In this document: positions 6,263-48,809 of the stretch, piece after piece | Layout: the number at the start of each line of letters is the position of its first letter | How positions within the stretch are numbered: position 1 is the stretch's first letter | From: an uncultured Acidimicrobiaceae bacterium | Lineage (GTDB): Bacteria; Actinomycetota; Acidimicrobiia; Spongiisociales; UBA5794 | DNA: 64,000 nucleotides | Direction of reading: 5' to 3' | Assembly: GCA_947259365.1 (NCBI GenBank) | Contig: CAMYMC010000021.1 | Coordinates: 135,816 to 199,815, forward strand | Notes under the pieces: generated by a model | Told to the model about the DNA's origin: nothing | Databases searched by the model: none | What the model saw: the letters and a program-made list of their open reading frames with translations, nothing else | Position numbers and translations under genes: made by a program

Positions 6263-6324
6263 CCTGCACCCTCCCAAGGCAGTCCGGCCCTCACCTGCGT
6301 GGTTGTCCACAATGTTGTCCACAC

Positions 6325-6372
6325 CCACAACATCTTGTGGTGGGGAAGCGGCTGGGGCCCAAGATGTTGCGC
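6325..6372 (-). promoter_or_regulatory. pair of NrdR-box-like palindromes upstream of nrdJ
   Basis: CCACAACATCTTGTGG (6325-6340, plus strand) and GCGCAACATCTTGGGC (6357-6372, read on the minus strand) share the 10-nt core CAACATCTTG. Their centres are 32 bp apart. A third, weaker copy CCACAATGTTGTCC lies at 6307-6320. Confidence 0.55.
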
Positions 6373-6385
6373 AGTTGGACACACG

Positions 6386-11359: not shown

Positions 11360-11410
11360 GCCGAGGCCCCGTCTCCCGGCCATACCCACCGATTGGCCGC
11401 CGGCGGGGGA

Positions 11411-11761: not shown

Positions 11762-11898
11762 CGTCCAAACATGTCGAACTGCGCTTCGACGTGTCGGGCC
11801 ATCGTTCCCGGTGGTGTCGAGGTGCGACCTCGCCCGAGTTGGCGGCTGCCCATTGCTCACCGGGTGGCGAACCGCCGTGCGGCTACGATCCTTGCGCA

Positions 11899-12387
11899 GT
11901 GCTCACCCCCGGAACCGTGGCACCCGACTTCGACGTCGCCGACCAGTGGGGCGGCCGCGTCCGACTCCGCGACCTTCGCGGCACCTGGGTGGTGCTGTGG
12001 TGGTACCCGAAAGCCGCCACGTCGGGATGAACGGATGAAGGGCAGGGGTTCCGTGACCGAATCCCGGACTTCGACGGGCTCGGCGTGGTGATCCTCGGCA
12101 TCTCCTACGACACCCCCGATGACAACCGCGCCTGGGCTGAGAAGCACCGGTTCCCGTTCCAGCTCCTCTCCGACGAGGATCGCTCCGTGGCCGGGGCCTA
12201 CGGCGCAGTCCGCCACCCCGACGATGCCTCCCCCGGGCGCCCCCGGAGGATCACCTACGTCATCGACCCGGCGGGTGTGATCCGGCTGTCGTATCGCGTG
12301 GCCTCAGCCGACATCGCCGGCCACGCCGACCGGGTGCTCGCCGACGTGGAGGTACGCATCGACGCACCGCGCCGCGGCGGGGTCTGA
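11899..12387 (+). CDS. Bcp/PrxQ-type peroxiredoxin with in-frame TGA at the peroxidatic Cys position (probable selenoprotein)
   Basis: Track ORFs 11458..12030 and 12085..12387 are in the same frame with no other stop between them. Read-through gives VLTPGTVAPDFDVADQWGGRVRLRDLRGTWVVLWWYPKAATSG[TGA]TDEGQGFRDRIPDFDGLGVVILGISYDTPDDNRAWAEKHRFPF. That is the PxxxTxxC motif with TGA (12028-12030) in place of C. The GTG start at 11899 gives a typical ~160-aa length. Confidence 0.7.
12045..12065 (+). promoter_or_regulatory. SECIS-like hairpin downstream of the peroxiredoxin TGA
   Basis: GGGGUUC-CGUGACC-GAAUCCC has a 7-bp stem with one G-U pair. It starts 15 nt after the UGA and has GU in the apical loop. 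Confidence 0.45.
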
Positions 12388-32567: not shown

Positions 32568-32631
32568 CGGCGACCGGGCCGGTTTCCGGCATCCGACACC
32601 GGGCGGGCGCCCGCCGACCCCCGGTGGCGCC

Positions 32632-33876
32632 GTGACCGGGCGCACGGTCGACCCCACCCTGCGCTCGTGGGTTCCTGTCCCGGCGGGATCCGACTTCCCC
32701 ATCCAGAACCTCCCGTTCGGGGTCTTCGAAGACGAGCGCGGCCGCCGGGTCGGGGTCGCGATCGGCGAACACGTCCTCGACCTGCGCGCGGTCCACGACG
32801 CGGGCATCATCCGCCTCGAGGCCGACGAGGCCGCCGCCGTCTCGCTGAACCCGATGCTCGGGTCCCGGGCCCGACTCGGCGCGATCCGGCACCGCGCCTC
32901 GGAGCTGCTCACCGAGGGCAACGAGGAGCTCTTCGGAATCCCCGGCCGCGGAATCGTGCCCCTGGAGCAGGTGACGCTCCAATTGCCCCTCGAGGTCCCC
33001 GACTACGTGGACTTCTACTCGTCGCTGCACCACGCCACCAACCTGGGACGTATGTTCCGTCCCGACGCCGAGCCGCTGCCGCCGAACTGGAGGCACCTGC
33101 CGGTCGGCTACCACGGGCGGTCGGCCACCATCGTCCTCAGCAGCACCGACGTCCGCCGCCCGTGGGGCCAGCACACGCCGCCCGCCGGCGACCCGGTGTT
33201 CGGCCCCTCCACCCGGCTCGATTTCGAGCTCGAGGTCGGCTTCGTCACCTGCGGCGACGTCCCCGCCGGCCGGCCGATTCCCGTCGACCGGGCGGAAGAG
33301 CACATCGCCGGTCTCGTGCTGGTCAACGACTGGTCGGCTCGCGACATCCAGGCGTGGGAGTACGTCCCGCTCGGGCCGTTCCTCGGCAAGAGCTTCGCCA
33401 CGACGATCTCGCCGTGGCTCGTGACCCTCGACGCCCTCGCTCCGTACCGGGTGCCGGCACCCCCCCAGCACCCGGAGCCCCTCCCCCACCTGCGCGCCGA
33501 CCCGAACCTCGGCCTCGACCTCGAGCTCGAGGTCGACCTCAACGCGACGACGATCGCGCGCACGACCTTCCGCGACATGTACTGGACGATGTCCCAGCAG
33601 CTCGCCCATGTGTCGAGCAATGGCGCCGTGGTGCGAGCGGGCGACCTCTATGCGTCGGGCACGGTGTCGGGCCCAGACCAGGGCACGTTCGGGAGCCTCA
33701 TCGAGCTCGCCGAGGACGGTGCACGTCCTCTCCGGCTCGGGGACGGTTCGGAGCGGGCGTTTCTCGAGGACGGCGACACGGTGACGATGCGGGGGTTCTG
33801 TGACGACGGGCGGGTGAGGATCGGCTTCGGAGCGAACGTCGGGACGATCGTCCCGGCTCCCGACGAGAGAGGATGA
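32632..33876 (+). CDS. fahA: fumarylacetoacetase
   Basis: Sequence includes SWVPVPAGSDFPIQNLPFGVF, VDFYSS, GYHGRS and NDWSARDIQAWEYVPLGPF. The GTG start was chosen to give the usual short N-terminus. The track ORF starts earlier, at 32530. Confidence 0.85.
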   Translation: MTGRTVDPTLRSWVPVPAGSDFPIQNLPFGVFEDERGRRVGVAIGEHVLDLRAVHDAGIIRLEADEAAAVSLNPMLGSRARLGAIRHRASELLTEGNEELFGIPGRGIVPLEQVTLQLPLEVPDYVDFYSSLHHATNLGRMFRPDAEPLPPNWRHLPVGYHGRSATIVLSSTDVRRPWGQHTPPAGDPVFGPSTRLDFELEVGFVTCGDVPAGRPIPVDRAEEHIAGLVLVNDWSARDIQAWEYVPLGPFLGKSFATTISPWLVTLDALAPYRVPAPPQHPEPLPHLRADPNLGLDLELEVDLNATTIARTTFRDMYWTMSQQLAHVSSNGAVVRAGDLYASGTVSGPDQGTFGSLIELAEDGARPLRLGDGSERAFLEDGDTVTMRGFCDDGRVRIGFGANVGTIVPAPDERG

Positions 33877-34988
33877 CGACGGTGAGCGAGGCCTTCGAGG
33901 CACACAGGAACGACTTCCCGATCCACGGGTTCCACCACATCGAGTTCTGGGTCGGCAACGCGTACCAGACCGCCCACTATTACCGCGCCATCCACGGCTA
34001 CCGCATCGTCGGGTACCGGGGCCCCGAGACCGGCGTCCGGGACACGGCGTCCTACGCCCTCAGCCAGGGCGACGTGCGGCTCATCGTCACGGGCGCCATG
34101 GCCCCGGATCATCCTCTCACCGCGCATCTGGGAGCGCACGGTCCAGGTGTGCGCGACGTCGCGGTCCACGTCCCGGACGCAGATCAGGCCTTCGACGTGG
34201 CGCTCGAGCGCGGAGCAGAGGGCGTCGCCAAGCCGGCCGTGGTCGAGGGCGACCGCGGCATCTGGAAGACGGCGGCCATCGCCGCCTACGGCGACACGGT
34301 CCACAGCCTCGTCGAGGACGAAGCGGGAACGTGGCCGCCTCCCGATTTTCGGCCGCGCCAAGACTCGATCGCCGAGCCGATCGGGCTGGCGAACATCGAC
34401 CACGTCGTTGCCAACGTCGAGCTGGGGGCGATGGACCGCTGGGTCGAGTTCTACGAGCGGGTGTTCGGGTTCGTCCTGTTGCGCCACTTCGACGACGAGG
34501 CCATCTCCACCGAGTACTCGGCGCTCATGTCGAAGGTCGTGTGGGACGGCTCCGGGGTCATCCGCCTGCCGATCAACGAGCCGGCGACCGGCCGCCGCCG
34601 CAGCCAGATCGAGGAATACCTCGAGTTCTACCGGGGACCCGGCGTCCAGCACATCGCCATCGCCACCGACGATCTCGTCTCGACGGTCGCCCGGGCGCGA
34701 CGGCGCGGAATGGGTCTCATGCGGGTGCCCGACACCTACTACGACGATATCGCCGACAGAGTCCCCGATCTCGACGCCGACGTCGACACGTTGCGAAGGC
34801 TCAACATCCTCGTCGACCGGGACGAGGGCGGGCATCTCCTCCAGATCTTCACGAGGATGATGCAGGACCGGCCGACGTTCTTCTACGAGTTCATCGAGCG
34901 GCGCGGCGCCGTCGGCTTCGGCGAGGGCAACTTCAAGGCGCTCTTCGAGGCGATCGAGCGCGACCAGATGGAGCGGGGCAACCTCTGA
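33873..34988 (+). CDS. hppD: 4-hydroxyphenylpyruvate dioxygenase
   Basis: 371 aa with FHHIEFWVGNA, IDHVVANVELG, GVQHIAIATDD, LLQIFT and FFEFIERRG-like FYEFIERRGAVGFGEGNFKALFEAIE. ATGA overlap with fahA. Confidence 0.92.
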   Translation: MTTVSEAFEAHRNDFPIHGFHHIEFWVGNAYQTAHYYRAIHGYRIVGYRGPETGVRDTASYALSQGDVRLIVTGAMAPDHPLTAHLGAHGPGVRDVAVHVPDADQAFDVALERGAEGVAKPAVVEGDRGIWKTAAIAAYGDTVHSLVEDEAGTWPPPDFRPRQDSIAEPIGLANIDHVVANVELGAMDRWVEFYERVFGFVLLRHFDDEAISTEYSALMSKVVWDGSGVIRLPINEPATGRRRSQIEEYLEFYRGPGVQHIAIATDDLVSTVARARRRGMGLMRVPDTYYDDIADRVPDLDADVDTLRRLNILVDRDEGGHLLQIFTRMMQDRPTFFYEFIERRGAVGFGEGNFKALFEAIERDQMERGNL

Positions 34989-38129: not shown

Positions 38130-38663
38130 TCAGTCCTCGCGGTCCTTCTCGTACCGGTCGAGAGCGACGACGAAGATCATGAAGAGTATGAACGACGCCA
38201 GGGTCATGGCGATGGCGGGAATCCGGATCTGGAAGGCGTTGAGGCCCTCCAGGTTGGCCGGCCGGACGCCGCGGGGCGCGTAGATGACGAAGAGGAGGCT
38301 GCCGATGACGAGCCAGCCAAACGTCGCGGCGCCGGTGATGAGGATCGCGAGCCGGGATCCGACGTTGGTAGAGAGGACGAGCCATACGGTGCCGACGAAG
38401 GCACCGACCGAGACCACGGTGATGAGGATCCCCTTCGTCGCGACCGAGAACGTCTCCGTCTCACCGGCGGCGTTCTTCCGGTTGAAGATGCCGTCGTAGG
38501 CGTCGGCGACGATGCCGCGCAGCGGCGGGATGAACGCGATGATCGACACGACGATGAGCGCAACGCCGAGCCACTCCAGTTTGCTGAGGCCGCGTTCGTC
38601 GTGTCGCAGTGGGATCGACCGGCGATCCCGCCGGCTACGCCCTCGGCGTGGTGGTGTGGTCAC
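38130..38663 (-). CDS. hypothetical membrane protein, last gene of the bc-type operon
   Basis: 177 aa with about 4 TM helices. Its start overlaps the cytochrome c stop by 4 nt. Confidence 0.65.
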   Translation of the reverse strand: MTTPPRRGRSRRDRRSIPLRHDERGLSKLEWLGVALIVVSIIAFIPPLRGIVADAYDGIFNRKNAAGETETFSVATKGILITVVSVGAFVGTVWLVLSTNVGSRLAILITGAATFGWLVIGSLLFVIYAPRGVRPANLEGLNAFQIRIPAIAMTLASFILFMIFVVALDRYEKDRED

Positions 38664-40363
38664 AGCGTCCTCTCGTAGGCGACGATCAACTCGATGTCCT
38701 CGAGGCTGAGGACCTGTCCGAACCCCGGCATCCGTCCGCTGCCGAGACCGTTCACGCCGTAGCTGGCGCCGAACTCGCTACCCCGGATGATGAACGAGAT
38801 CTGATCCTCCTCGACGGGGAATTGGACGACGGACCGTCCGTCCCGCAGCGCCGGACCCCACGCCCCCGACCCGGCGCCTTGCTCGAACGCCACCCCGGCG
38901 CTGTATCCGGCGGTGTGGCAGCGGGCGCAGTAGCCGTTGAAGAGACCGACGGCGCGCTCGGCCTGTGCGGCGTTGACGGCCATGCGGGTGGCGAGCCCGC
39001 TGTAGTCGGCCGTGGTCGCCGTCGTCCCGTCCTCGGCCTCGGCGCTGGTGACCGTCACCCCGTCGGGGATCCACCGCTGGGCAGCGGCCGCGTCCTCGAG
39101 GAAGCGAGTGCCGAGATCGACTGTCTCGAGGAACCGGTCCTGGCGCTCGGTGATCACCGTGAGGGTGAGGATGTCGCTGTCGAGGTGGCCGAGGAACGTC
39201 TCGAGTTCGTCGAGGTCGGCGATCGCGGTGCCGGTGACATCGCTGTTGGTGAACGCCGAGGATGCGTCGAACGAGATGTCGTAGAAGTCGCTCGGCGTCG
39301 CCACGGTCTCGCCTTGGGGCGACACGGTCCTCGTCGTGATCGTGGCGAAGGCCTCTGCGGCGATCCCAGTGAGGACGTCCTCGGCCTCGTCGGCGATGCC
39401 GTCGCGGTCTCGGTCGACACCCTCGATGCCGCACGTCGTCCCGGCGAGCGCCGCCGACTCGTCGGTGCATGCACCGTCGCGGGAGATGAGCAGGCGCACC
39501 GCTTCGTTGAGCTTGAGCTGGGGGTTGGCCGCCGTCTCGGTCGCGAAGGCGCCCGAGTCGGCGAGAAAGCGCGCCTGGTTCTCGAGCTTGGACGGAGCGT
39601 CGAGCACGTCGTCGGTGCGCGCCTGTTGCTCGAGGAGAAGGCGAGCGACGGCCGCGTCGCCGCCGACGATCCTTCCGAGAGCCTGGCCGACCGTGTCCTC
39701 GATCTTCGACAGCGTCTCTCCCTGGGTGATCTGGAAGTTCTCGATGAAGGCGATGACCTGGTCGATCTCCTGGCTGGTCATGGCGCCCCCGCCCTCGAGC
39801 CCGGCGGGTGCCATGGGCGTTCCGGCCCGGCCGTTGACGATGACCTGGCGGATCTCCTCCTCCGAGTACCTGAAGTAGACGTCGTTGAGGCTGGGCGCCG
39901 CCCAGGCGACGTCGATGCCCGAGCGCTTCTCGACGAACGGAGCCCCGCCGCCGGCGCCCACCGGTCCGTGGCACTCGGTGCACACGAACTTCTCCCACCA
40001 CCGCTCGCCTTCTTCGATGTCCTTCTCGTGGATCGCCTCCGCCGCCTTCGCCTGCCGGTTCGACTCGTTGACGTAGTAGACGGGCAGGACGATGGCGAGC
40101 ACGGCAGCGGCGACGACGGCAGCGCCGAGGACCCGGGTGATCCTGTTGACCTCGAGTTCGTCGTCCGAGAGGTAGGGCTGGAGGTTCTTCGGCGTCTCCT
40201 CCGGCTTGGCCCTCCTCGTCCAACTCGCGACCAGGAGGTATCCCATCCAGGCCAGGAACGCCGCCACCGCCACCGTCAGCACGACGGCACCGAGACCGAC
40301 GTTGCTCGGTCCGGCCGGCTCGCTCTCGGAGACGGCCAGGATGATGGGGAGGGCGAGCGTCAT
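38660..40363 (-). CDS. qcrC: membrane-anchored diheme cytochrome c (QcrC-like) with a large inter-domain insertion
   Basis: 567 aa with two N-terminal TM helices. Heme motifs are CTECH (aa 128) and CARCH (aa 479). C-terminal GSGRMPGFG. Confidence 0.8.
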   Translation of the reverse strand: MTLALPIILAVSESEPAGPSNVGLGAVVLTVAVAAFLAWMGYLLVASWTRRAKPEETPKNLQPYLSDDELEVNRITRVLGAAVVAAAVLAIVLPVYYVNESNRQAKAAEAIHEKDIEEGERWWEKFVCTECHGPVGAGGGAPFVEKRSGIDVAWAAPSLNDVYFRYSEEEIRQVIVNGRAGTPMAPAGLEGGGAMTSQEIDQVIAFIENFQITQGETLSKIEDTVGQALGRIVGGDAAVARLLLEQQARTDDVLDAPSKLENQARFLADSGAFATETAANPQLKLNEAVRLLISRDGACTDESAALAGTTCGIEGVDRDRDGIADEAEDVLTGIAAEAFATITTRTVSPQGETVATPSDFYDISFDASSAFTNSDVTGTAIADLDELETFLGHLDSDILTLTVITERQDRFLETVDLGTRFLEDAAAAQRWIPDGVTVTSAEAEDGTTATTADYSGLATRMAVNAAQAERAVGLFNGYCARCHTAGYSAGVAFEQGAGSGAWGPALRDGRSVVQFPVEEDQISFIIRGSEFGASYGVNGLGSGRMPGFGQVLSLEDIELIVAYERTL

Positions 40364-40367
40364 CGGA

Positions 40368-41282
40368 TCAGATGCAGGAGGGACCCTGGGGGTATGGGAT
40401 CGTCTTCTTCTTGGCGCGCGCCGTCTGGAAGATCGCTCCCGTGTTGACGATGAGATCGCCGGTCTCGCTCACGTCGACCTCGAAACGGTCGAGGTTGCGC
40501 GGCGCCGGCCCCGCCTCGTATTCGCCGTGGAAGTTGTACCGCGATCCGTGGCACGGGCACTCGAAACCCTGGCTCGGCACGCACTCGGGCACGCGGCAGC
40601 CGAGGTGGACGCATCGCTGCCACAGCGCCATGAGCCCGACCTCGCCGCCCCCGCCGCCGGCGACGACGGGGAGGCCCTCGAAGGAGCTGCCTGGCAGCTG
40701 GGTGGGGTCGAAGGGGACGATCCACGCCTGAGCGGCCGCCACGAACTTCGGCACGATGACCTCGCCGGAGATCTCACGCCGGATGTCGACGAGGGTGCCG
40801 GCGTTGATCGGCGTTCCGAACCCTCCCCGCAGCTTCGGCCACAGGAAGGCGAGATAGGCGAGGGCCTGCCCGCCGAGAAAGGCACCGCCGAAGAGGCCGA
40901 GCACGGCCCGGTTGAGGAACTTCCGGCGGGTGGCTGCGTACTCCGCGCGGCTGATCTCCTCTCGCTCGAGGAGTGGATCGGGACCTGGCGGAGGAGCCGC
41001 GTCGGCTGGCGCCGGGGCGAGGTCGTCCGGCGCAGCCACGACCTCTGCGTCGGGTGCGGTGTCCTCGTCCTCGCGCACGAGCGTTGCCACCGTCCCGGTG
41101 TCGCCGCCGCCCGCTTCGGCGGCGCGACGGGCCTCAGCTTCGCCGCGGCGCGCTGCCTCCTCGAGGTCGCCGGTGATCGGCCCCGCCGACGGCTCGCGCC
41201 GGGCGGCGACGACGAACACGCCCGCGGAGGCGAGGACCGCGGCGGCGATGATGCCGATGACGAAGATGGTGGTTGGGCTCAT
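40368..41282 (-). CDS. qcrA: Rieske [2Fe-2S] subunit of cytochrome bc-type complex
   Basis: Cluster ligand boxes CVHLGCRV and CPCHGSRY, with an N-terminal TM. The ATG shares 1 nt with the upstream stop (TGATG). Confidence 0.9.
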   Translation of the reverse strand: MSPTTIFVIGIIAAAVLASAGVFVVAARREPSAGPITGDLEEAARRGEAEARRAAEAGGGDTGTVATLVREDEDTAPDAEVVAAPDDLAPAPADAAPPPGPDPLLEREEISRAEYAATRRKFLNRAVLGLFGGAFLGGQALAYLAFLWPKLRGGFGTPINAGTLVDIRREISGEVIVPKFVAAAQAWIVPFDPTQLPGSSFEGLPVVAGGGGGEVGLMALWQRCVHLGCRVPECVPSQGFECPCHGSRYNFHGEYEAGPAPRNLDRFEVDVSETGDLIVNTGAIFQTARAKKKTIPYPQGPSCI

Positions 41283-42355
41283 CAGAAGTCGAAGAAGACG
41301 CCGTCGATCCAGGGATACGTGAAGTTGAAGCCGGGTCCCCGGAAGAACGACCCGTAGATGGTCAGGATGGCCGAGGCGAAGAGGAAGAAGCTGAAGATCA
41401 TGATGGCGAGCTTGCGATCGGACGGTCGCACGGAGGGGTTCCGGTCGATATAGGGGATGATGGCGAGCCCGGCGAGGCCGAGACCGGGGATGGTGACGCC
41501 GGCGACCTGGGGGTCGAAGTACGACAGCATCTCCTGGAGACCGAGGAAGTACCAGGGCGCCTTCGAGGGATTGGGCTGGTCGTTGAAGTTGGCGAACTCG
41601 AGGAGCGGGGCATCGACGAAAGCGGAGAAGACGACGAGCAGGGCTGTGCACGCCATGAGCGCGACGAACTCGATGGCGAGGAGATGCGGCCAGACGTTGA
41701 CCTTGTCGTGCGGCTCGGCCTTCACCTGCTGGATCGCCCCCGCCTTGACGACGGTGAGGAGCCGCTGGGTCCGGACCCCTTCTGGGATGACCGGCGCCGC
41801 CGCCGGTGCGGCCGCCGCCGGTGCTGCCCCCGGTGTCGCGGCTGCGGGTGCCGCCGCCGGCGCGCCCTCGCCGGTGAACGCGGGTGCGGCGATGCCGTCG
41901 TGGCGTGCCCTGGCAACCGCCGCCCGCCGGAGCAGATCGACCGGGACTCCGTACGTGGCCGATTCCGCCTGCAGGTCCCGCGATGGCTCGCCGGCCGGTG
42001 CCGCCGCGGCGACCGGCGCGCCGGCCTCGGCGACGGGCGCGGGCTCTGGGGCCGGTGCCGCCGGCGGCGGCGCTGCCGCCGGTGCCGGCTCGCCCTTCAT
42101 CTCGGCAAGGACCTCTTCGACGTCGCGCCCCTCGGCCTTGGCTCTCGCCTCGGCCGACCGGCGCAGGATGCTCTCGGGAAGGCCGGCCGTCTCCGCCGGT
42201 GCGGGTGGGGTTTCGGCGGCCGCTGGCTCCTCCGCGCGGGGCTCCGGTGGCGACTCTCCTTTGAGCTCGGCGAGCACCTCTTCGACATCGCGGCCTTCCG
42301 CTTTGGCTCTCGCCTCGGCCGTCCTGCGCAGGATGTGCTCCGGTATTTCCGCCAC
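41282..42355 (-). CDS. cytochrome b C-terminal / subunit IV (PetD-like) protein with repeat-containing N-terminal extension
   Basis: The C-terminal ~140 aa include WPHLLAIEFV...NPSKAPWYFLGLQEMLSYF (the PEWYF-type motif). The N-terminal ~215 aa carry three copies of an (I/L/V)P..(I/L)LRR.A.ARA module. GTG start is 4 nt after AGGAG. Confidence 0.8.
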   Translation of the reverse strand: MAEIPEHILRRTAEARAKAEGRDVEEVLAELKGESPPEPRAEEPAAAETPPAPAETAGLPESILRRSAEARAKAEGRDVEEVLAEMKGEPAPAAAPPPAAPAPEPAPVAEAGAPVAAAAPAGEPSRDLQAESATYGVPVDLLRRAAVARARHDGIAAPAFTGEGAPAAAPAAATPGAAPAAAAPAAAPVIPEGVRTQRLLTVVKAGAIQQVKAEPHDKVNVWPHLLAIEFVALMACTALLVVFSAFVDAPLLEFANFNDQPNPSKAPWYFLGLQEMLSYFDPQVAGVTIPGLGLAGLAIIPYIDRNPSVRPSDRKLAIMIFSFFLFASAILTIYGSFFRGPGFNFTYPWIDGVFFDF

Positions 42356-42363
42356 GGTGCTCC

Positions 42364-43146
42364 TCAGAGTGGTCCGGAGATGCCGCCGTCCTTGCGGACT
42401 CTCCAGAAGTGGACGGCCATGAACACGACGATGATGAACGGCAGGAAGAGGACGTGCAGGACGTACCACCTCAATAACGTGTCGGGCGTGATCTGGACGC
42501 CTCCAATGAGGGTGAAGGTCACCTGATCCCCGAACACAGGGACGTACGCGGCCATGTTCGACCCGACCGTCACCGCCCAGATGGCGAGCTGGTCCCAGGG
42601 GAGCAAGTAGCCGGTGAACGACAGCAGGAGCGTCAGCAGCAACAGGATGACCCCGACCATCCAGTTGAACTCCCGGGGAGGCTTGTAGGCCCCGTGGTAG
42701 AAGACCCGCGCCATGTGGAGGAACACCGTGAGGACCATGGCATGGGCGCCCCACCGGTGCATGTTGCGCACGATCTGGCCAAAGGCGACGTCGGTCGAGA
42801 GCGCCTGGATGTCGATGTACGCCGCCGGGGACGTCGGGCGGTAGTAGAACATCAGGAAGATGCCCGTGATCGTGAGCAGGATGAAGAGGAAGAAGCTCAG
42901 CCCACCGAGACACAGCGTGTACGAGAGGCGCACACCGTGGCGCTTCACCTTCACCGGGTGGAGGTGGTACAGCACGTTGTTCATGATGACGTAGGAGCGG
43001 TTCCTCGGGCTGTCGGAGTAACCGGCGCGGAACGGGGAGCCGGGCCGGAAGATGCTCGACCACACCTGGCTCTGGCGGACGTGGTCCGCCGCGTCGGACA
43101 GGCGGTCCCGCAACCCGGGTCTGCCGTTACCCGTGCCGTTCGCCAC
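42364..43146 (-). CDS. qcrB: cytochrome b6-type (N-terminal four-helix, diheme) subunit
   Basis: 260 aa. Sequence includes [47 protein letters not shown] and LHVLFLP. Confidence 0.9.
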
Positions 43147-43221: not shown

Positions 43222-43668
43222 TCACCATCTCATCCCGTATGAGTATCCGTTCTTGAAATCGCGCTGGCCGGTGTTGAACTCCCACGGCGACAGGTCGTAC
43301 TCCGAGGTCTGGTCGGACACCGATCCGGCGAACTTGCCGAGGGTGATGACCCCGGTCGGGCAGCGGTCGATGCAGAGCGCGCACCTCGTGCACTCGTCCT
43401 CGTCGACGAGGAAGAAGCCCATGTTCTCCGTCTTGTCCGCCGGGTTCTCGACGTTCGCCGCCTCCGCGATCGCGTCGAGAGAGAGGTAATGGATGCACTT
43501 CCAGGGGCAGATGTCGACGCACCCCTCACAGAGGATGCACTCCGACTGGTCGATGTGGAGGAACTGCTTCGGCTTGACCGCGGCCCTGAGGTACTCGTCG
43601 TCGACCGCGGCCAGCTGGTAGTCGTCGCGGATCGGTGGCGTCTCGAACCAGACGTCGGTCTTCGCCAT
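43222..43668 (-). CDS. 2x[4Fe-4S] ferredoxin-type protein encoded within the bc-type operon
   Basis: 148 aa with two CxxCxxCxxxCP motifs: CILCEGCVDICP and CTRCALCIDRCP. Confidence 0.85.
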   Translation of the reverse strand: MAKTDVWFETPPIRDDYQLAAVDDEYLRAAVKPKQFLHIDQSECILCEGCVDICPWKCIHYLSLDAIAEAANVENPADKTENMGFFLVDEDECTRCALCIDRCPTGVITLGKFAGSVSDQTSEYDLSPWEFNTGQRDFKNGYSYGMRW

Positions 43669-43671: not shown

Positions 43672-44274
43672 CTACCTCCCCACCTTCGTGAGGGGGCGTC
43701 CGTAGGGCGAGACCGGCTCCGGCTTCGGGGTCGTGACCCGCTTGCCCGCCCGGACCTGCCACTGGTACATGGCGAAGACGATGAGTCCGGTGATGACGAG
43801 GTGGTAGATGCCGGACACCGCGTCCTTGACGGCGGCGTACGAGATGGACACCTCGTTGTTGAGCATGAGCCACTTCGGGAGCGTGATCGCGATCCTCTGC
43901 GGCGTCCACTCCCACACCGATTGCGTCAGCGTGAGCCACTCGTTGGGCACGAGTCCGTAGAGGATCATCATCAGGGTGGTGAAGAGAGTGGCGCCGAGCG
44001 AGGCCCGGGCCCACGTCATCTCCCGCTGGTAGAGGAAGGCCACGGCGACGCCCGCGATGAGGACGAGACCGCCGGCGAGGGAGATGACCTGGCCGATGAC
44101 GACCCACTGCCATCCCCGGGGTATGGCCGGGTAGATCTCCGCACCGACATCGTTGAGTTCTGACAAGCCGGTGAAGTGGGCGAACAGCGCCCCGGCGATC
44201 GTCACGAAGCCACCGGCGAGGATGGCGGCGATCCCGATCCTGCGGTACTTGTTCAGCTCGCGGATGTCGGTCAT
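43672..44274 (-). CDS. hypothetical membrane protein, first gene of the bc-type operon
   Basis: About 200 aa from the ATG (MTDIRELNKYRR), with 5-6 TM helices. Its stop lies 3 nt before the ferredoxin start. Confidence 0.6.
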   Translation of the reverse strand: MTDIRELNKYRRIGIAAILAGGFVTIAGALFAHFTGLSELNDVGAEIYPAIPRGWQWVVIGQVISLAGGLVLIAGVAVAFLYQREMTWARASLGATLFTTLMMILYGLVPNEWLTLTQSVWEWTPQRIAITLPKWLMLNNEVSISYAAVKDAVSGIYHLVITGLIVFAMYQWQVRAGKRVTTPKPEPVSPYGRPLTKVGR

Positions 44275-44486
44275 TTCGGCGGCATCGCTCCGTGGCGTCG
44301 GGACCGTGTCGGGTCGGCTCGCGACCGTACCGCTCGGCATTCTACGCACGGCTCACGGCGACACGAACTCGGCCCCGGACGGCACGGAGATGGATTCACC
44401 GCGCCGGCGCGGCGAAGCTAGGCTGCCCTCCGCCGCGCCACAGGACTGTGGGACGAACCAGTGCGTACGGGGAGGAGCCACGGGCG

Positions 44487-46427
44487 GTGACGACCGATAC
44501 CTTGGCCGACTCACCGGAGACGGCCGACCCGCAGCCTGAGCCCTCGTACACACCGGAATCCGACGGAGCCAGCCGGCTCCACCTGCTCGTCTCCTTCGCG
44601 TTCCTCCTCGAGGCGCTCCTCGCCGGCCTCCTGCTCGCCGCTCGCTTCGTCGAGCCGGATCTCCTCGGTGATGTCGCGTTCTTGTCGTCCGGCCGGCTGC
44701 AGCCCGTCGCGACGCATCTGTTCGTCTACGGCTGGGTCACGATCGGGCTCCTCGGGGCCGCCTACTACGTACTGCCCCGGGTGAGCGGCGCACCGCTGCG
44801 GAGTCCTGGTCGGGCCGGGGTCGCCCTCGTCCTGCTCACCGTCGGGTACGCCGCAGGCGCCGTCGGCATCGCCCTCGGGATGAGCGAGGGCCGTCGTCTC
44901 CTCGAGGCGCCGCTGTGGGCCGACGTCATCGTCCTGGCCGGTCTCCTCGCCGCCGCCTCGATCGTGACGGCCACTGTCCGCCAGCGCACCGACCTGGGTC
45001 CGGCCCAATGGTATTTCACCGCGGCGACGTGGTGGCTCGTGCTCCTCCACGTCGTCGGGAACATTCCCGGCGTCGCCGGCGTGGGATCGGCGCTGCAGAC
45101 ATCGTTCTACCGCGCGGGCCTCATCGGGCTCTGGGTGGCCGCCGCCGGCGTCGGCGTCGTGTATTACGTCATCCCGAGGTTGACGGGCCGGACGGCCCTC
45201 GCCCCGACGCAGATGTCGGTCATCGGTCTCTGGTCGCTCGCCTTCGTGTGGGCGCTCACCGCTCCCTCCGACCTCACCTACGGACCGACGCCGGACTGGC
45301 TCGACACGGTGAGCGTCATCTTCGCCATCGGGATGGTCATCCCGGTGGCCGTGATCATCGCCGACGTCGTGACCGCGATGCGGGGCAGGTGGGTCGACGT
45401 CTCGGGGACCATCACCATCCGCTACCTCATGGCCGGTGCGGTCGCGCTCGGGCTCATCCCGGCCGTCAACCTCCTCGTCGCCCTGCGCGGCCCCTCGACC
45501 GTCGTCGGTTTCACGGACTGGGCGCCCGCCATCGATTTCCTCGCCGTGGGGCTGGCGGCCACGTTCTGGCTGCTGGCCTACGTCGCCGTCGCCGCCCCCG
45601 ACCTCAGGATCGGGGGTCCGCCTCTGACCCGGTGGCCGTATCGGGTGACCGTCCTCGGCGGCGCGCTGTTCGTCGCCGGCTTGCTTCTCGGCGGTGCGCT
45701 TGCCGGGCTCACCTGGCTCGGTGGCGCCAACTCGGGGGTGTATGCCAACACCGGCGACGGGTTCCAAGCGACGGCGAGGGCTCTCGAGGGCATCTACGTC
45801 ATGCGCCTCGTCGGCTACGCGATCTACGCCTACGGTCTGTTCTGGTTCGCTCTCAGCCTCGTCCGCAGACGTGCCCTGGACGCGTCGCGGCCGGTGACCC
45901 GCTACGGCTCCGACATCGAGCTCGACCCCGAGGTCGTTCTGCGCAAACCGCTGCGACTCGGCAGCCTGGCCGGCACCGGGCTGGCCTTGTTCGGGGCCGC
46001 GGTGCTGTTCGCCTTCGTCGTGCCGGCGCTCGAAACCGGTGGCGCCGAGCCAACTCTCCTCGCCGATGAGCACAGGCTCTACGTCGAGGGGACCGCAGCG
46101 GCCGAAGGGCGTGAGGTGTATCTCCGCGAGGGCTGCCAGGTATGCCACACGCAGGCAGTGCGCCCGATCGTGACCGACGTCGGGCTCGGCGCCGTCGGCG
46201 TGCCCGGTGACTACGCCCACGAGGTCCCGGCCGCGATCGGCTCGACGCGCGTGGGGCCAGACCTCATGCACGCCGCCGCGGGGTCCGTCGCCGCGGACGC
46301 CGCCGCGCTCGAGGCTTACCTCGTCGACCCCCGCGCCGTGCGGTCGTGGTCCATCATGCCCGCGTACGCCCACCTGTCCGACGCCGACCGCGACGCACTC
46401 GTCGCCTACATCCTGACTCTCGACTGA
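44487..46427 (+). CDS. CcoN-like (heme-copper oxidase subunit I fold) / CcoO-like (FixO monoheme c) fusion; the CcoN-like part lacks active-site histidines
   Basis: GTG start 9 nt after GGGGAGGAG. The ~470-aa polytopic region has YYVLPR, YYVIPR, PDWLDT and FTDW landmarks. It is followed by a TM and then EVYLREGCQVCHTQAVRP...STRVGPDL...DPRAVRSWSIMPAY, a typical CcoO pattern. Confidence 0.75.
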   Translation: MTTDTLADSPETADPQPEPSYTPESDGASRLHLLVSFAFLLEALLAGLLLAARFVEPDLLGDVAFLSSGRLQPVATHLFVYGWVTIGLLGAAYYVLPRVSGAPLRSPGRAGVALVLLTVGYAAGAVGIALGMSEGRRLLEAPLWADVIVLAGLLAAASIVTATVRQRTDLGPAQWYFTAATWWLVLLHVVGNIPGVAGVGSALQTSFYRAGLIGLWVAAAGVGVVYYVIPRLTGRTALAPTQMSVIGLWSLAFVWALTAPSDLTYGPTPDWLDTVSVIFAIGMVIPVAVIIADVVTAMRGRWVDVSGTITIRYLMAGAVALGLIPAVNLLVALRGPSTVVGFTDWAPAIDFLAVGLAATFWLLAYVAVAAPDLRIGGPPLTRWPYRVTVLGGALFVAGLLLGGALAGLTWLGGANSGVYANTGDGFQATARALEGIYVMRLVGYAIYAYGLFWFALSLVRRRALDASRPVTRYGSDIELDPEVVLRKPLRLGSLAGTGLALFGAAVLFAFVVPALETGGAEPTLLADEHRLYVEGTAAAEGREVYLREGCQVCHTQAVRPIVTDVGLGAVGVPGDYAHEVPAAIGSTRVGPDLMHAAAGSVAADAAALEAYLVDPRAVRSWSIMPAYAHLSDADRDALVAYILTLD

Positions 46428-46436
46428 GCCGCGACC

Positions 46437-47348
46437 ATGGACGAACTCCTCCAGCTCATCTCCAACCGACTCGGTGTGCCGACCGATCTCCTCGAGCGTG
46501 CCGCAGCCGCCCGCGCCGCGGCGAGCGGCTCGGGCGCCGAGGACATCGTCCGCTCATGGGCCGGGGACGAGGCGCCGCTTCCGGCGGCCGCGGCCCCGCC
46601 GCCGCAGCCGGCGCCGGCCGCGCCCGTCGCTGCCGAGTCCGCTCCCGCCCCGCCCCCACCGGCACCGCCGGCCGCTACGGAGGCGGAGAGCCCGGCCGTC
46701 GAGGTGCTTCTCCCCGCCGAGCCGGCAGCCGGCGACAGTGACGACGGCGGCGAGGACGAGGCCGTGCAGCCGGCAGCGGCCGGCGATCGATCCACGGTGC
46801 TCAGCGGCTTCCCGCGCTGGCTCGCCGCCTCCTTCGTCCTCCTCCCGCTCGCCGCGCTCCTCTACGCGCTCGTGACTCCGAACGCCCCCGATTGCGGCAG
46901 TGCCGGCCAGCTCGCCGTCGACCCGGTCACGGGTGTCGCGGTGAACTGCGATGGCTCGCCGTACGGTGTCGACGCCGTCGACTTCTTCGCCATCGGCGAG
47001 GAGGTCTATTCCGGGAAGTGCGCCGCCTGCCACGGCGCCGCCGGCGGAGGCGGGGTGGGACCGGCGTTCACGGGCGGCGCTGTGCTCGCGACGTTCCCCG
47101 CATGCGGCGAGCACATCACGTGGGTCGAGATCGGCTCCATCGGCTGGCCCGACCCGACGTACGGCGCCAACAACACACCGGTGCTCGGCAGCGGCGCCGT
47201 GATGCCGGGCTTTGCCGCACCGGTGCTCACCGCCGAGGAGCTGGCGTCGGTCGTTCTCTACGAGCGCGTGGCCTTCGGGGGGGAAGCGCTGCCCGAAGCC
47301 GAGGGCGGCTGCGGACTCACCGGCGGCACGGTCGTCGCGGCACCCTGA
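46437..47348 (+). CDS. membrane-anchored monoheme cytochrome c (CcoP-position gene)
   Basis: 303 aa. The N-terminal module is GVPTDLLERAAAARAAASG, followed by an Ala/Pro-rich linker and a TM (WLAASFVLLPLAALLYALV). The heme motif is CAACH, and MPGF is present. Confidence 0.8.
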   Translation: MDELLQLISNRLGVPTDLLERAAAARAAASGSGAEDIVRSWAGDEAPLPAAAAPPPQPAPAAPVAAESAPAPPPPAPPAATEAESPAVEVLLPAEPAAGDSDDGGEDEAVQPAAAGDRSTVLSGFPRWLAASFVLLPLAALLYALVTPNAPDCGSAGQLAVDPVTGVAVNCDGSPYGVDAVDFFAIGEEVYSGKCAACHGAAGGGGVGPAFTGGAVLATFPACGEHITWVEIGSIGWPDPTYGANNTPVLGSGAVMPGFAAPVLTAEELASVVLYERVAFGGEALPEAEGGCGLTGGTVVAAP

Positions 47349-47627
47349 TCGGGGCGTGTCGCCTCGTCGCCACCCGGGTGAAGAGGATCACGGTGAAGCC
47401 GTTCATGGACATCAATACGATGATCGAGGAGCGGCTCCTCAGGTGTTGTGTCCACGTCGGCACGGTCGGCGAGCGTCATCAATGCGTGCCGTTCTGCGCC
47501 GCTCAGGCCTGGCCCCGGCTCGGCGCGATGAAGCTGGCGGCGGCGGGCGCCCGCCTCTGTCCCGTGGCCTGAGGAGGCGCAGAGACCGCATTCGCACCGA
47601 CGCCCGGATGGCGATCTCCGGTGCTGG

Positions 47628-48809
47628 TTGACTGGGCGGGTGCGGACCATCACCACGGCCGAGCGGAGGGCTCGTCTCGGGACGCGCCACGGGCTCGGCG
47701 TCGCCTTCCCAGATGTCGACGACGCCGCTGCCGCCGCCGTCGGGCTCCATTCGAGTGATCCGGCGACGGTGTTCCTCTCCGCCCGGGCCCGCTGCGACGG
47801 GTTGGAGGTGGGCGACCTCGAGAACGCCCTCTACGAGCGCCGCTCCCTCGTGCGGATGCTGGGCATGCGGCGGACGCTCTTCGTTGTCTCCCTCGAGGTC
47901 GCCGCGGAGATGGATGCCGCATGCACGAGAGCACTCGCGGGGACAGAAACCGCCCGTCTCGCCCGCATGCTCGAAGAACAGGGCATCGCGACGGACGGCG
48001 CCCGCTGGGTCGAGCGTGTCGAGCGCGACACCCTCGCCGCGGTCTCCGCCCGCAAGGAGGCCACCGCCGGCAAGCTCGGCGAGGACGTTCCGGAGCTGCG
48101 GCTCAAGCTCACCTTCGGTGAGGGCAAGACGTGGGGCGGCACGGTGGGGGTCTCCACCCGGGTGCTGTTCCTGCTCGCCACCAAAGGCCTCATCGTCAGG
48201 ACCCGCCCGCTGGGGACGTGGCTGTCGAGCCAGTACCGGTGGGCGCCGACGGAGGAGTGGATCGGCGGCCGGCTCGAGTCCCTCGAGACTGCAGACGCTG
48301 CAGCGAGACTGACGCGGCGCTGGCTCCGCTCCTACGGTCCCGGCACCCTCGCCGACCTGAAGTGGTGGACGGGGTGGACCGTGGCCCTCACCCGGCGGGC
48401 GCTTGCAGACGCGGGCGCCGTCGAGGTCGAGCTCGACGAAGGACCGGGCTTCGTCCTCGCCGACGACGTCGAACCGGTCACCGCGTCCCCGGACTGGGCA
48501 GCGCTCCTGCCCGGCCTCGACCCCGCCGTCATGGGGTGGAAGGACCGGGACTGGTACCTCGGCGGCCACGGCGCGGCGCTCTTCGACCGCAACGGCAACG
48601 CCGGGCCGACCGTCTGGTGGAACGGCAGGGTCGTCGGGGGGTGGGGGCAACGAGCCGACGGTGAGATGGCCGTTCGGCTGCTCGAGGACCCCGGGGCCGA
48701 GGCTCGGTCGCTCATCGATGCCGAGGCGGAGCGGCTCGCGACGTGGCTCGGTGACGTGCGGGTCACACCCCGGTTCCGCACCCCGGTCGAGAAGGAGCTC
48801 CGCGGCTGA
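47628..48809 (+). CDS. winged-helix DNA-binding domain protein (YcaQ/AlkZ-like DNA glycosylase family)
   Basis: 393 aa. Sequence includes LHSSDPATVFLSARAR, LYERRSLVRMLGMRRTLF, YRWAP, RRWLRSYGPGTLADLKWWTG and GPTVWWNGRVVGGW. The start is TTG at 47628 or GTG at 47640. Confidence 0.78.
   Translation: MTGRVRTITTAERRARLGTRHGLGVAFPDVDDAAAAAVGLHSSDPATVFLSARARCDGLEVGDLENALYERRSLVRMLGMRRTLFVVSLEVAAEMDAACTRALAGTETARLARMLEEQGIATDGARWVERVERDTLAAVSARKEATAGKLGEDVPELRLKLTFGEGKTWGGTVGVSTRVLFLLATKGLIVRTRPLGTWLSSQYRWAPTEEWIGGRLESLETADAAARLTRRWLRSYGPGTLADLKWWTGWTVALTRRALADAGAVEVELDEGPGFVLADDVEPVTASPDWAALLPGLDPAVMGWKDRDWYLGGHGAALFDRNGNAGPTVWWNGRVVGGWGQRADGEMAVRLLEDPGAEARSLIDAEAERLATWLGDVRVTPRFRTPVEKELRG

What the first reader, a model, noticed from the sequence alone, without database searches (positions are those of the whole stretch)
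44487..46427. CcoN-CcoO fusion whose oxidase subunit-I domain has lost the heme/CuB histidine ligands
Seen in sequence:
- The C-terminal ~150 aa are a well-preserved CcoO/FixO-type monoheme domain (EVYLREGCQVCHTQAVRP, STRVGPDL, DPRAVRSWSIMPAY).
- The preceding ~470-aa polytopic region has subunit-I landmarks (GRLQPVATHLFVYGW...YYVLPR, YYVIPRLTG, TYGPTPDWLDT, GFTDWAPAIDF).
- That whole membrane region has only three His (RLHLL, ATHLF, LLHVV), all in its first third.
- Where I recall cbb3 CcoN having W-Y-G-H-N, P-H-H-L and G-H-x-H, this protein reads FYRAG, APSDL and APAIDF.

Established knowledge: heme-copper oxidases and NO reductases need six invariant His, namely two for the low-spin heme, one for the high-spin heme and three for CuB (or FeB in NO reductases).

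Inference: this protein cannot assemble a binuclear O2/NO-reducing centre. It may be a repurposed scaffold, a heme c carrier or a supercomplex subunit. It is encoded divergently from the bc-type operon and co-transcribed with another cytochrome c. I know of no description of such a histidine-less CcoNO.
Basis: partly seen in the sequence, partly recalled or inferred. Interest (0 to 1): 0.85.

Follow-up and report, generated by a model that had tools for sequence, protein, structure and literature searches.

The report
Cofactor-less cbb3 oxidase relic keeping haem c
This Acidimicrobiia gene encodes a fused cbb3-oxidase subunit I/II whose membrane part has lost every ligand for haem b, haem b3 and copper but is still under selection, so it cannot reduce oxygen and most likely serves as a membrane scaffold for a c-type cytochrome working with the neighbouring cytochrome b6c complex.

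Summary
ORF 44487-46427 (+, 646 aa) is a true CcoN-CcoO fusion: Pfam COX1 2.8e-23, FixO 6.9e-20, and an AlphaFold model that superposes on P. stutzeri CcoN (TM 0.85).

All six metal-ligand His and the cross-linked Tyr are replaced. The CcoO CXXCH and axial Met are intact.

This is not an error or a pseudogene:
- The same loss is seen in all 29 database homologues, in 21 GTDB loci and in about 75 further 50%-identity cluster representatives.
- dN/dS of the membrane domain is 0.11-0.22.
- Outer-face loops are as conserved as the haem c domain.

In 25 of 26 ligand-less loci the gene is immediately divergent from, or (L087) three cytochrome c maturation genes away from, a Rieske/cytochrome b6 operon. 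It is normally followed by a membrane-anchored cytochrome c. Subunit IV of that b6c complex and the downstream cytochrome c share a family-specific 32-aa cytoplasmic motif.

Canonical, His-bearing cbb3 genes sit in homologous b6c-cbb3 clusters in Acidobacteria and other phyla. The Acidimicrobiia form therefore looks like a degenerate descendant.

Best reading: a non-catalytic scaffold carrying one haem c, working as an electron-relay or supercomplex subunit of the b6c complex. The loss of oxidase function is shown; the relay role is inferred. I found no published description, and databases name these proteins cbb3 oxidase.

The parts
44487..46427 (+). Ligand-less CcoN-CcoO fusion protein (646 aa)
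   Evidence: Pfam COX1 and FixO; 100% identical to P0001; RBS GGAGGAG upstream of GTG 44487.
44562..45866 (+). CcoN-like 12-helix membrane domain (residues 26-460) without haem b, haem b3 or CuB ligands
   Evidence: AF2 model pTM 0.85 with 12 TM helices. Foldseek hits 3mk7 CcoN with TM 0.85 and rmsd 3.0 A. Ligand columns read A/A/W/S/D/I/F.
45957..46043 (+). CcoO-type transmembrane anchor helix (residues 491-519)
   Evidence: Helix H491-519 in the AF2 model. It aligns with the N-terminal helix of CcoO in 8smr_F and 3mk7_B.
46074..46424 (+). CcoO/FixO-type monohaem cytochrome c domain (residues 530-646)
   Evidence: FixO 6.9e-20; alignment to CcoO of 9g83 and 6xkw; mean column conservation 0.68.
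46134..46148 (+). CXXCH haem c attachment motif (C550-Q-V-C-H554)
   Evidence: Invariant C550, C553 and H554 in alignment A1; position.
46356..46358 (+). Met624, axial haem c ligand in the S-I-M-P motif
   Evidence: Invariant M624 and P625. It aligns with the canonical CcoO S(I/V)MP(K/S)Y.
46437..47348 (+). Membrane-anchored monohaem cytochrome c (303 aa), probably co-transcribed (9-nt gap)
   Evidence: Pfam Cytochrome_CBB3 and Cytochrom_C; one CAACH motif; present downstream of the gene in nearly all ligand-less loci.
46473..46568 (+). 32-aa N-terminal cytoplasmic motif of the downstream cytochrome c, shared with b6c subunit IV
   Evidence: Motif HMM hit 5.9e-13; regex hit.
43672..44274 (-). 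Conserved 4-helix membrane protein of unknown fold, first gene of the divergent b6c operon
   Evidence: 444 homologues, all unnamed and from Acidimicrobiia/Actinomycetota. AF2 model pLDDT 82. No structural or Pfam match.
43222..43668 (-). 2x[4Fe-4S] ferredoxin-like protein in the b6c operon
   Evidence: Pfam Fer4 families; PDB polyferredoxin and NuoI-like hits; conserved in synteny.
42364..43146 (-). Cytochrome b6 (with CLGG, the haem ci-type Cys motif)
   Evidence: Pfam Cytochrome_B 7.6e-48; 80-93% identical across the ligand-less loci; C.GG motif.
41282..42355 (-). Subunit IV (PetD-like) with an N-terminal extension carrying three copies of the shared motif
   Evidence: Pfam Cytochrom_B_C; motif hits at 42254-42349, 42089-42184 and 41888-41950; start.
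40368..41282 (-). Rieske [2Fe-2S] protein
   Evidence: Pfam Rieske; start.
38660..40363 (-). Dihaem cytochrome c of the b6c operon
   Evidence: Pfam Cytochrome_CBB3 with two stretches.
38130..38663 (-). Conserved membrane protein of unknown function, last gene of the b6c operon
   Evidence: No Pfam, NCBIfam or PDB match; conserved in synteny.

Best explanation
The protein descends from a cbb3-type (C-family) haem-copper oxidase but is catalytically dead.

Shown:
- The CcoN-like 12-helix domain binds neither haem b, haem b3 nor CuB, so it cannot reduce O2 or NO or pump protons by the known mechanism.
- It is nevertheless kept under purifying selection, most strongly on its outer (periplasmic-side) face.
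- The fused CcoO-like domain keeps everything needed for one covalently bound, His/Met-ligated haem c.

Inferred: the membrane domain now serves as an anchor and docking platform that positions this haem c. Together with the co-transcribed membrane-anchored cytochrome c, it would form a c-haem relay attached to the divergently encoded Rieske/cytochrome b6/subunit IV/dihaem c complex. That relay would pass electrons from menaquinol oxidation on to a separately encoded terminal oxidase (aa3/caa3 type) or another acceptor. In other words, it would be a former bc-cbb3 supercomplex in which the oxidase partner decayed into a structural, electron-carrying subunit.
For: Homology and fold:
- Pfam COX1 and FixO.
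- PDB hits to CcoN and CcoO.
- AF2 model plus Foldseek, TM 0.85 to 3mk7 CcoN.

Loss of ligands:
- All six ligands and the Tyr are lost in the window protein.
- The loss holds in 29 of 29 homologues, apart from one stray His at column 258.
- It holds in 21 Acidimicrobiia/Actinomycetota GTDB loci, while all 60 canonical sequences read HHYHHHH.
- Two independent alignments of 150 cluster representatives agree.
- Other residues invariant in canonical CcoN are also variable: R57, N62, E122, Y123, W203, N208, T215, N289, Y317, S377, W386, Q406.

Still functional:
- dN/dS of the membrane domain is 0.11-0.22 in six pairs.
- P-side loops have conservation 0.68, N-side loops 0.40 and the haem c domain 0.68 (Mann-Whitney p 1e-12).
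- C550, C553, H554, M624 and P625 are invariant.

Link to the b6c complex:
- The operon lies divergent from the gene in every ligand-less locus with enough flank except L086: immediately adjacent in all but L087, where ResA, ResB and CcsA lie between.
- In L087 cytochrome c maturation genes sit directly upstream of the gene.
- A 32-aa cytoplasmic motif occurs at the N-termini of subunit IV, of the downstream cytochrome c and, in unfused loci, of the CcoO-like protein. It is found in 24 of 26 ligand-less loci and in none of about 60 canonical loci.

Ancestry: canonical CcoN/CcoO lie directly downstream of Rieske-cytochrome b-multihaem c, with CcoG and CcoI nearby, in Acidobacteria and a deltaproteobacterial MAG.

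Precedent: bc1-cbb3 supercomplexes with CcoN, CcoO and CcoP contacts to cytochrome c1 are solved (PMC10556555; PDB 8smr, 6xkw, 9g83).
Against: - No direct evidence of physical association, of haem c incorporation or of expression.
- The terminal acceptor is unknown. No oxidase is encoded in the 64-kb window and I could not read the rest of the contig.
- One ligand-less unfused relative (L086) is not next to a b6c operon, so adjacency is not universal.
- The CcoN-like domain evolves four to five times faster than cytochrome b6: 35-48% versus 80-93% identity. This shows strong relaxation and leaves open how much of it matters.
- Higher conservation on the outer face is also expected simply from the ancestral architecture.
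Confidence: 0.55

Rival explanations
1. The membrane domain has taken on a new, non-redox job of its own, for example ion or proton conduction, lipid or quinone binding, or acting as an assembly or stability factor for the b6c complex. On this reading the haem c domain is secondary.
For: Purifying selection acts on all 12 helices, with mean conservation 0.51-0.70 per helix. Some residues are specific to the family and nearly invariant, for example D293 in place of the canonical invariant Asn, W255 in place of Tyr251, and R334.
Against: The residues of the canonical proton pathway and the Ca/propionate site are not conserved. No conserved polar chain across the membrane stood out in the conservation table, though I did not search for one specifically. 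The strongest conservation is on the outer face next to the haem c domain.
Confidence: 0.2
2. The module works independently of the b6c complex as a membrane-anchored cytochrome c. It would serve another pathway, such as extracellular or metal electron transfer or a nitrogen-oxide reductase, and the adjacency would only reflect a shared respiratory gene island.
For: In L086 the ligand-less CcoN-like and CcoO-like genes sit next to an MtrC-like multihaem cytochrome and FeS proteins, with no b6c operon adjacent. The module is also always near a MenJ-like reductase and nuo genes.
Against: 25 of 26 ligand-less loci have the b6c operon divergent from the gene, immediately adjacent in all but L087. 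The cytoplasmic motif shared by subunit IV and the module's cytochromes argues for a common assembly.
Confidence: 0.15
3. It is still an oxygen or NO reductase that binds its metals through unconventional ligands.
For: The overall HCO fold is retained. Unusual ligands (His/Met, His/Lys, Asp for His) are known in other HCO families (PMC11214002).
Against: No His, Met, Cys or Lys is conserved at 90% or more anywhere in the membrane domain; the only conserved Tyr is the structural Y226. The ligand columns hold Ala, Ser, Gly, Val, Leu and Phe. No ccoG, ccoH, ccoI or ccoS genes are nearby.
Confidence: 0.03
4. It is a decaying pseudogene or an assembly or sequencing artefact with no function.
For: Sequence divergence is much faster than in the neighbouring cytochrome b6. 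It scores far below the curated NCBIfam cut-offs.
Against: Intact ORFs of about 610-750 aa occur in dozens of independent assemblies. dN/dS is 0.11-0.22. The haem c motifs are invariant and synteny is conserved.
Confidence: 0.03

Closest known systems
cbb3-type cytochrome c oxidase CcoN/CcoO (C-family haem-copper oxidase), including the fused CcoNO of Bacteroidota
   Same: 12-helix subunit I fold (Foldseek TM 0.85 to 3mk7). CcoO-type single-helix anchor plus monohaem c domain with CXXCH and Met. A cytochrome c gene follows. Fusion order N then O, as in Dyadobacter and Flavobacterium loci, which have no internal stop.
   Different: All six His ligands, the cross-linked Tyr, the Ca-site Glu and the proton-pathway residues are gone. 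The downstream cytochrome is monohaem rather than dihaem CcoP. There is no ccoGHIS neighbourhood. About 60 residues of canonical CcoO after the Met region have no counterpart. Scores are far below the TIGR00780 and PRK14485 cut-offs.
bc1-cbb3 respiratory supercomplexes (P. aeruginosa 8smr, R. capsulatus 6xkw, 9g83) and the b6c-cbb3 gene clusters of Acidobacteria and Ignavibacteria
   Same: A Rieske/cytochrome b complex and a CcoN/CcoO module are encoded together or associate physically. c-type cytochromes bridge them.
   Different: In those systems CcoN is the working oxidase. Here it has no redox centre, so the module can only carry electrons on haem c.
Cofactor loss in accessory subunits of haem-copper enzymes (bo3 and gNOR subunit II without CuA; the qNOR N-terminal domain without haem c)
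   Same: A redox domain is retained structurally after losing its metal site (PMC11214002).
   Different: Those losses affect the electron-entry subunit while subunit I stays catalytic. Here the reverse holds: subunit I is emptied and the haem c entry domain is kept.
Non-catalytic enzyme relics used as structural subunits of respiratory complexes (for example the peptidase-derived core proteins of mitochondrial complex III)
   Same: An enzyme fold under purifying selection inside or next to a bc-type complex after loss of catalytic residues. This comparison rests on my general knowledge and was not tested here.
   Different: Unrelated fold and origin. Association with the complex is not yet shown for the protein studied here.

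Membership tests
C-family haem-copper oxidase (cbb3) subunit I, CcoN | 12-transmembrane-helix HCO subunit I fold | tested here: met
   Pfam COX1 82.9 bits against a cut-off of 34.8, covering the whole model. The AF2 model matches 3mk7 CcoN with TM 0.85.
C-family haem-copper oxidase (cbb3) subunit I, CcoN | Two His axial ligands of low-spin haem b (H60, H347 in P. stutzeri) | tested here: not met
   Ala75 and Phe351 in the window protein. None of 29 homologues has His at either column.
C-family haem-copper oxidase (cbb3) subunit I, CcoN | His ligand of high-spin haem b3 (H345) | tested here: not met
   Ile349 in the window protein; the family has Y/L/V/I/T.
C-family haem-copper oxidase (cbb3) subunit I, CcoN | Three His ligands of CuB (H207, H257, H258) | tested here: not met
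   Ala, Ser and Asp in the window protein. The family has A/S/G, A/S/R and D/E/R, with a single His in 1 of 29 at column 258.
C-family haem-copper oxidase (cbb3) subunit I, CcoN | Cross-linked active-site Tyr in helix 7 (Y251) | tested here: not met
   Trp in 22 of 29, Phe in 5, Tyr in 2.
C-family haem-copper oxidase (cbb3) subunit I, CcoN | Score above the curated family thresholds (TIGR00780 ccoN; PRK14485 fused I/II) | tested here: not met
   95.5 bits against 583, and 171 bits against 1080.
cbb3 subunit II, CcoO/FixO | N-terminal membrane helix plus monohaem c domain with CXXCH and an axial Met in the S-x-M-P motif | tested here: met
   FixO 71.9 bits against a cut-off of 29.6. C550, C553, H554, M624 and P625 are invariant. 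Alignment to the CcoO chains of 9g83 and 6xkw.
cbb3 oxidase operon | Dihaem CcoP and ccoGHIS assembly/copper-delivery genes nearby | tested here: not met
   The downstream cytochrome has one CXXCH. No FixG, P-type ATPase or CcoS/H genes are in the flanks of the window, L001, L003, L084, L087 or L088. Canonical L031 has CcoG and CcoI. Genes elsewhere in these genomes were not searched.
Nitric oxide reductases of the C-family branch (cNOR, qNOR, NOD) | Haem b and b3 His ligands, plus three His (and Glu) for FeB | tested here: not met
   The ligand columns are the same as for CcoN and none is His. Foldseek matches to 3o0r and 3ayf are weaker than to CcoN.
Holo-cytochrome c (functional haem c carrier) | Haem actually attached and redox-active | not testable with these tools
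   Only the motifs can be seen. Haem staining or spectroscopy is needed.

The most novel reading that the evidence does not exclude
Acidimicrobiia have turned an entire haem-copper oxidase catalytic subunit into a cofactor-free structural subunit of a new kind of menaquinol:cytochrome c complex. Its parts would be b6c, a ferredoxin-like protein, pseudo-CcoN(O) and extra c cytochromes, tied together by a family-specific cytoplasmic docking motif.

This would be one case of a wider, unrecognised class. Dozens of 50%-identity clusters of CcoN homologues in several lineages have no ligands or only partial ligand sets, and all are currently annotated as cbb3 oxidases.
Probability: 0.45. Interest if true: 0.85.

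Novelty: new variant of a known kind. Interest (0 to 1): 0.72.

Why it matters
1. To my knowledge, and after eight literature searches, no homologue of haem-copper oxidase subunit I that lacks all redox ligands yet is maintained by selection has been described. It would be the first pseudo-enzyme of this superfamily at the level of the catalytic subunit, and a clear case of a respiratory enzyme decaying into a structural or electron-carrying part of its former partner complex.

2. It has a practical consequence. NCBI and JGI name these proteins cbb3-type cytochrome c oxidase subunit I/II. Metagenome studies of Acidimicrobiia report cbb3 oxidases and infer high-affinity oxygen respiration (for example PMC8357290). 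I did not check those particular sequences, but if they are of this type the inference is wrong. A simple six-His check would correct it.

3. It points to an undescribed architecture of the b6c-type complex in a widespread class of soil, freshwater and marine Actinomycetota: a ferredoxin-like subunit, two unknown membrane proteins and a shared cytoplasmic motif. This is directly testable by cryo-EM.

Tried and rejected
- Shifted or alternative ligands: I looked for any His, Met, Cys, Lys or Tyr conserved at 90% or more in the membrane domain. Only the structural Y226 qualifies. H188 aligns with the non-ligand H175 of P. stutzeri and is present in only 20 of 29.
- Sequence error or pseudogene: rejected by recurrence in independent assemblies and by dN/dS.
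- Rex operator (TGTGAA-N4-TTCACA) in the divergent intergenic region: no better than chance, and none between the operons.
- Sigma-70 promoter and terminator scan of 44100-47800: nothing informative.
- The two unknown membrane proteins of the b6c operon: no Pfam, NCBIfam or PDB sequence match. The AF2 model of the 200-aa protein has no Foldseek match in the PDB (best E 0.5).
- The shared 32-aa motif: no Pfam family.
- Canonical oxidase in the window: none among the ORFs tested. Two attempts to read beyond the window through exact-protein look-ups failed, probably because my start codons differ from the called genes.
- One hmmalign read-out was off by one column. It was corrected and then agreed with MAFFT.
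- Literature: eight searches and six papers read found no description of a ligand-less CcoN. The library does not hold most subscription-journal papers.
Full report
**What is there.** The window is about 70% G+C and comes from an Acidimicrobiia-type genome; the closest named homologues are Acidimicrobiia MAG proteins.

The ORF in question starts most plausibly at GTG 44487, behind a GGAGGAG ribosome-binding site, and ends at 46427. Its 646-aa product is identical to database protein P0001.

Pfam matches COX1 over essentially the full model (E 2.8e-23, above the gathering score) and FixO (6.9e-20). NCBIfam recognises the fused cbb3 subunit I/II family but far below its cut-off, 171 against 1080 bits. 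phmmer against the PDB finds CcoN and CcoO of P. stutzeri, P. aeruginosa and R. capsulatus.

An AlphaFold2 model built from 29 homologues (pTM 0.85) has 12 transmembrane helices, a thirteenth CcoO-type anchor helix and a C-terminal domain. Foldseek places it on CcoN of 3mk7 with TM 0.85 and rmsd about 3 A; NOR and A/B-family subunits I come far behind. Homology to HCO subunit I is therefore secure.

**The ligands are gone.** I rebuilt P. stutzeri CcoN residues 28-464 from the printed alignment. Its numbering reproduces H60, H207, Y251, H257, H258, H345 and H347. Aligned to it, the window protein reads A, A, W, S, D, I, F at these positions.

The membrane region contains only three His (32, 77, 188), no Cys and one Lys. 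The CcoO part keeps C550-x-x-C553-H554 and M624-P625, aligned with the canonical REGCxVCH and S(I/V)MP motifs.

**It is a family, not an accident.** Several searches point the same way:
- A database search returned 32 homologues of 40-63% identity, most carrying both Pfam domains. In an alignment of 29 of them, the only invariant His is the CXXCH His. None of the six ligand columns holds His, apart from one stray His in one sequence.
- A scan of one genome per GTDB species returned 80 loci. The 21 from Acidimicrobiia/Actinomycetota lack the ligands, while all 60 canonical sequences in that alignment (59 loci from other phyla plus the P. stutzeri reference) read HHYHHHH. That result also validates the alignment.
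- A profile search of 1.84 billion cluster representatives gave 5183 hits. I classified the best 150 by MAFFT and, independently, by hmmalign to an HMM built only from canonical CcoN. They include:
  - about 37 fused ligand-less representatives;
  - about 40 unfused CcoN-like proteins of 460-520 aa with none of the six His;
  - about 20 fused proteins with partial ligand sets;
  - canonical sequences (clusters).

One unfused ligand-less cluster carries the NCBI name 'cbb3-type cytochrome c oxidase subunit I [Acidimicrobiia bacterium]'.

**It is under selection, but relaxed.**
- Nei-Gojobori dN/dS for six pairs is 0.11-0.22 in the CcoN-like domain and 0.08-0.32 in the haem c domain.
- In canonical b6c-cbb3 clusters, cytochrome b and CcoN diverge at similar rates: 64-83% and 56-81% identity to one reference.
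- Among the Acidimicrobiia loci, cytochrome b6 is 80-93% identical to the window's copy but the CcoNO-like protein only 35-48%.
- Many residues invariant in canonical CcoN, beyond the ligands, are variable here. These include the Ca/propionate-site E122, W203, N208 and residues of the proton pathway.
- What stays conserved are structural Gly, Pro and Trp residues and, notably, the outer-face loops. Mean conservation is 0.68 there, equal to the haem c domain, against 0.40 for the cytoplasmic loops (p about 1e-12).

**Context.**
- The gene lies head-to-head with an operon on the minus strand. In order it encodes a 200-aa membrane protein of unknown fold, a 2x[4Fe-4S] ferredoxin-like protein, cytochrome b6 (with the CxGG haem ci motif), subunit IV, a Rieske protein, a dihaem cytochrome c and another unknown membrane protein. 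A Rex regulator gene lies beyond it.
- A 303-aa membrane-anchored monohaem cytochrome c starts 9 nt downstream of the gene. A MenJ-like FAD reductase and the nuo operon follow.
- This arrangement recurs in every ligand-less locus with enough flanking DNA, whether fused or unfused. The one exception, L086, has a different upstream neighbourhood.
- In L087, cytochrome c maturation genes (ResA, ResB, CcsA) sit directly upstream of the gene.
- No ccoG, ccoH, ccoI or ccoS genes are nearby. The canonical Terriglobia locus L031 has CcoG and a copper ATPase downstream of CcoN-CcoO.

**A second link between the two operons.** A 32-aa motif (consensus roughly G-[VI]-P-E-x-L-L-x-R-S-A-E-A-R-A-x-A-E-G-x-x-V-E-E-V-L-A-x-W-x-G-E), followed by an Ala/Pro-rich linker and a transmembrane helix, occurs in these places:
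- the N-terminus of subunit IV, in one to four copies (three in the window);
- the N-terminus of the downstream cytochrome c;
- in unfused loci, the N-terminus of the separate CcoO-like protein.

An HMM of the motif hits 24 of 26 ligand-less loci and none of about 60 canonical loci. It matches no Pfam family. By topology these N-termini are cytoplasmic, so subunits of both operons probably dock onto a common partner. In the fused proteins the CcoO part has no such motif, as if covalent fusion to the CcoN-like domain had replaced it.

**Origin.** In Acidobacteria and a deltaproteobacterial MAG, His-bearing CcoN and CcoO lie directly downstream of Rieske, cytochrome b (51-58% identical to the window's b6) and a multihaem cytochrome c. 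The Ignavibacteria loci (L034, L047) keep a cytochrome b6 of similar identity about 4 kb upstream of canonical CcoN. bc1-cbb3 supercomplexes with direct CcoN, CcoO and CcoP contacts to the bc complex have been solved (PDB entries). The simplest history is that an ancestral b6c-cbb3 unit lost oxidase chemistry in the Acidimicrobiia lineage while its c-haem part and its membrane body were retained.

**Mechanism proposed.**
- Shown: no binuclear centre or haem b can be ligated; the haem c motifs are intact; there is purifying selection and tight genomic coupling to the b6c operon.
- Inferred: the CcoN-like body acts as anchor and docking platform. The CcoO-like haem c and the downstream cytochrome c extend the c-haem chain of the b6c complex towards a terminal oxidase encoded elsewhere. 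Acidimicrobiia MAGs are commonly reported with caa3 and bd oxidases (PMC8357290).
- I give this 0.55. The rivals are a new non-redox role of the membrane domain (0.2), a b6c-independent cytochrome c role (0.15), unconventional metal ligation (0.03) and a functionless relic (0.03).

**Novelty and limits.** Eight full-text searches and the main survey of HCO diversity (PMC11214002) turned up no cofactor-less subunit I family. The library lacks most subscription-journal papers, so an earlier mention cannot be excluded. I file this as a new variant of a known kind: it clearly descends from cbb3 oxidase but fails five of its defining features. Haem content, expression, physical partners and the terminal acceptor could not be tested here.

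Noticed in passing
window 42254-42349, 42089-42184, 41888-41950 (-) and 46473-46568 (+); also L001, L003, L005, L008, L011-L018, L021, L023, L049, L079, L084, L088: A 32-aa cytoplasmic N-terminal motif (G-[VI]-P-E-x-L-L-x-R-S-A-E-A-R-A-x-A-E-G-x-x-V-E-E-V-L-A-x-W-x-G-E), often in tandem. It is shared by b6c subunit IV, the cytochrome c downstream of the pseudo-CcoN(O) and, in unfused loci, the CcoO-like protein. It is absent from about 60 canonical cbb3 loci and matches no Pfam family.
   Followed up: partly
window 43222-43668 (-) and 43672-44274 (-); 38130-38663 (-): The b6c operon opens with a conserved 4-helix membrane protein of unknown fold (444 unnamed homologues, no Foldseek match) and a 2x[4Fe-4S] ferredoxin-like protein, and it ends with another unknown membrane protein. 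Cytochrome b6 carries the CxGG haem ci motif. A cytoplasmic FeS subunit on a b6c complex is unusual.
   Followed up: partly
L085 9001-11286 (protein P0123) and cluster 3: A separate group of fused CcoNO-like proteins of 700-800 aa with partial ligand sets. P0123, for example, reads HHFQNHH: the haem ligands and one CuB His are kept, while two CuB His and the Tyr are lost. P0123 lies behind an ECF sigma factor and a FecR-like gene and is followed by a cytochrome c and a Urate_ox_N membrane protein.
   Followed up: partly
L024-L036, L044, L045, L052 and others (for example L031 6252-11980): In Acidobacteria and a deltaproteobacterial MAG (L052), canonical CcoN and CcoO are the last genes of a Rieske-cytochrome b-multihaem c operon. 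L031 has a large FAD/FeS protein, CcoG and a copper ATPase downstream. This is a one-operon bc-cbb3 unit.
   Followed up: partly
L086 1104-10886: An unfused ligand-less CcoN-like plus CcoO-like pair that is not next to a b6c operon. It is divergent from an FHA-domain flavoprotein, a cNMP-binding FeS protein and an 871-aa MtrC-like multihaem cytochrome, and it still precedes a MenJ-like reductase and nuo genes.
   Followed up: no
L087 6021-8916: System II cytochrome c maturation genes (ResA-like thioredoxin, ResB, CcsA) lie between the b6c operon and the ligand-less CcoNO gene.
   Followed up: no
window 46074-46427 (CcoO-like domain): Compared with canonical CcoO, about 60 residues between the Met-ligand region and the C-terminal helix have no counterpart (chain residues about 154-213 of 9g83_u). 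The haem domain is therefore shortened.
   Followed up: no
L013 (record titled 'uncultured Saprospiraceae bacterium'): This contig carries the complete Acidimicrobiia-type cluster with a ligand-less CcoNO and an 85%-identical cytochrome b6, so it is probably mis-binned.
   Followed up: no
L049 9188-13050 and L023 about 10570-12000: In L049 the CcoN-like and CcoO-like parts are in separate frames, with motif-bearing inserts between them and apparent frame changes inside the CcoO-like part. L023 shows many stops in a single-frame reading. These could be assembly errors or genuine decay in those lineages.
   Followed up: partly
window 31407-34988 (+), 2810-6382 (-): A tyrosine/homogentisate degradation cluster (HPPD-like dioxygenase, fumarylacetoacetase) indicates oxygen-dependent metabolism. 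There is also a B12-dependent class II ribonucleotide reductase with a TSCPD domain.
   Followed up: no
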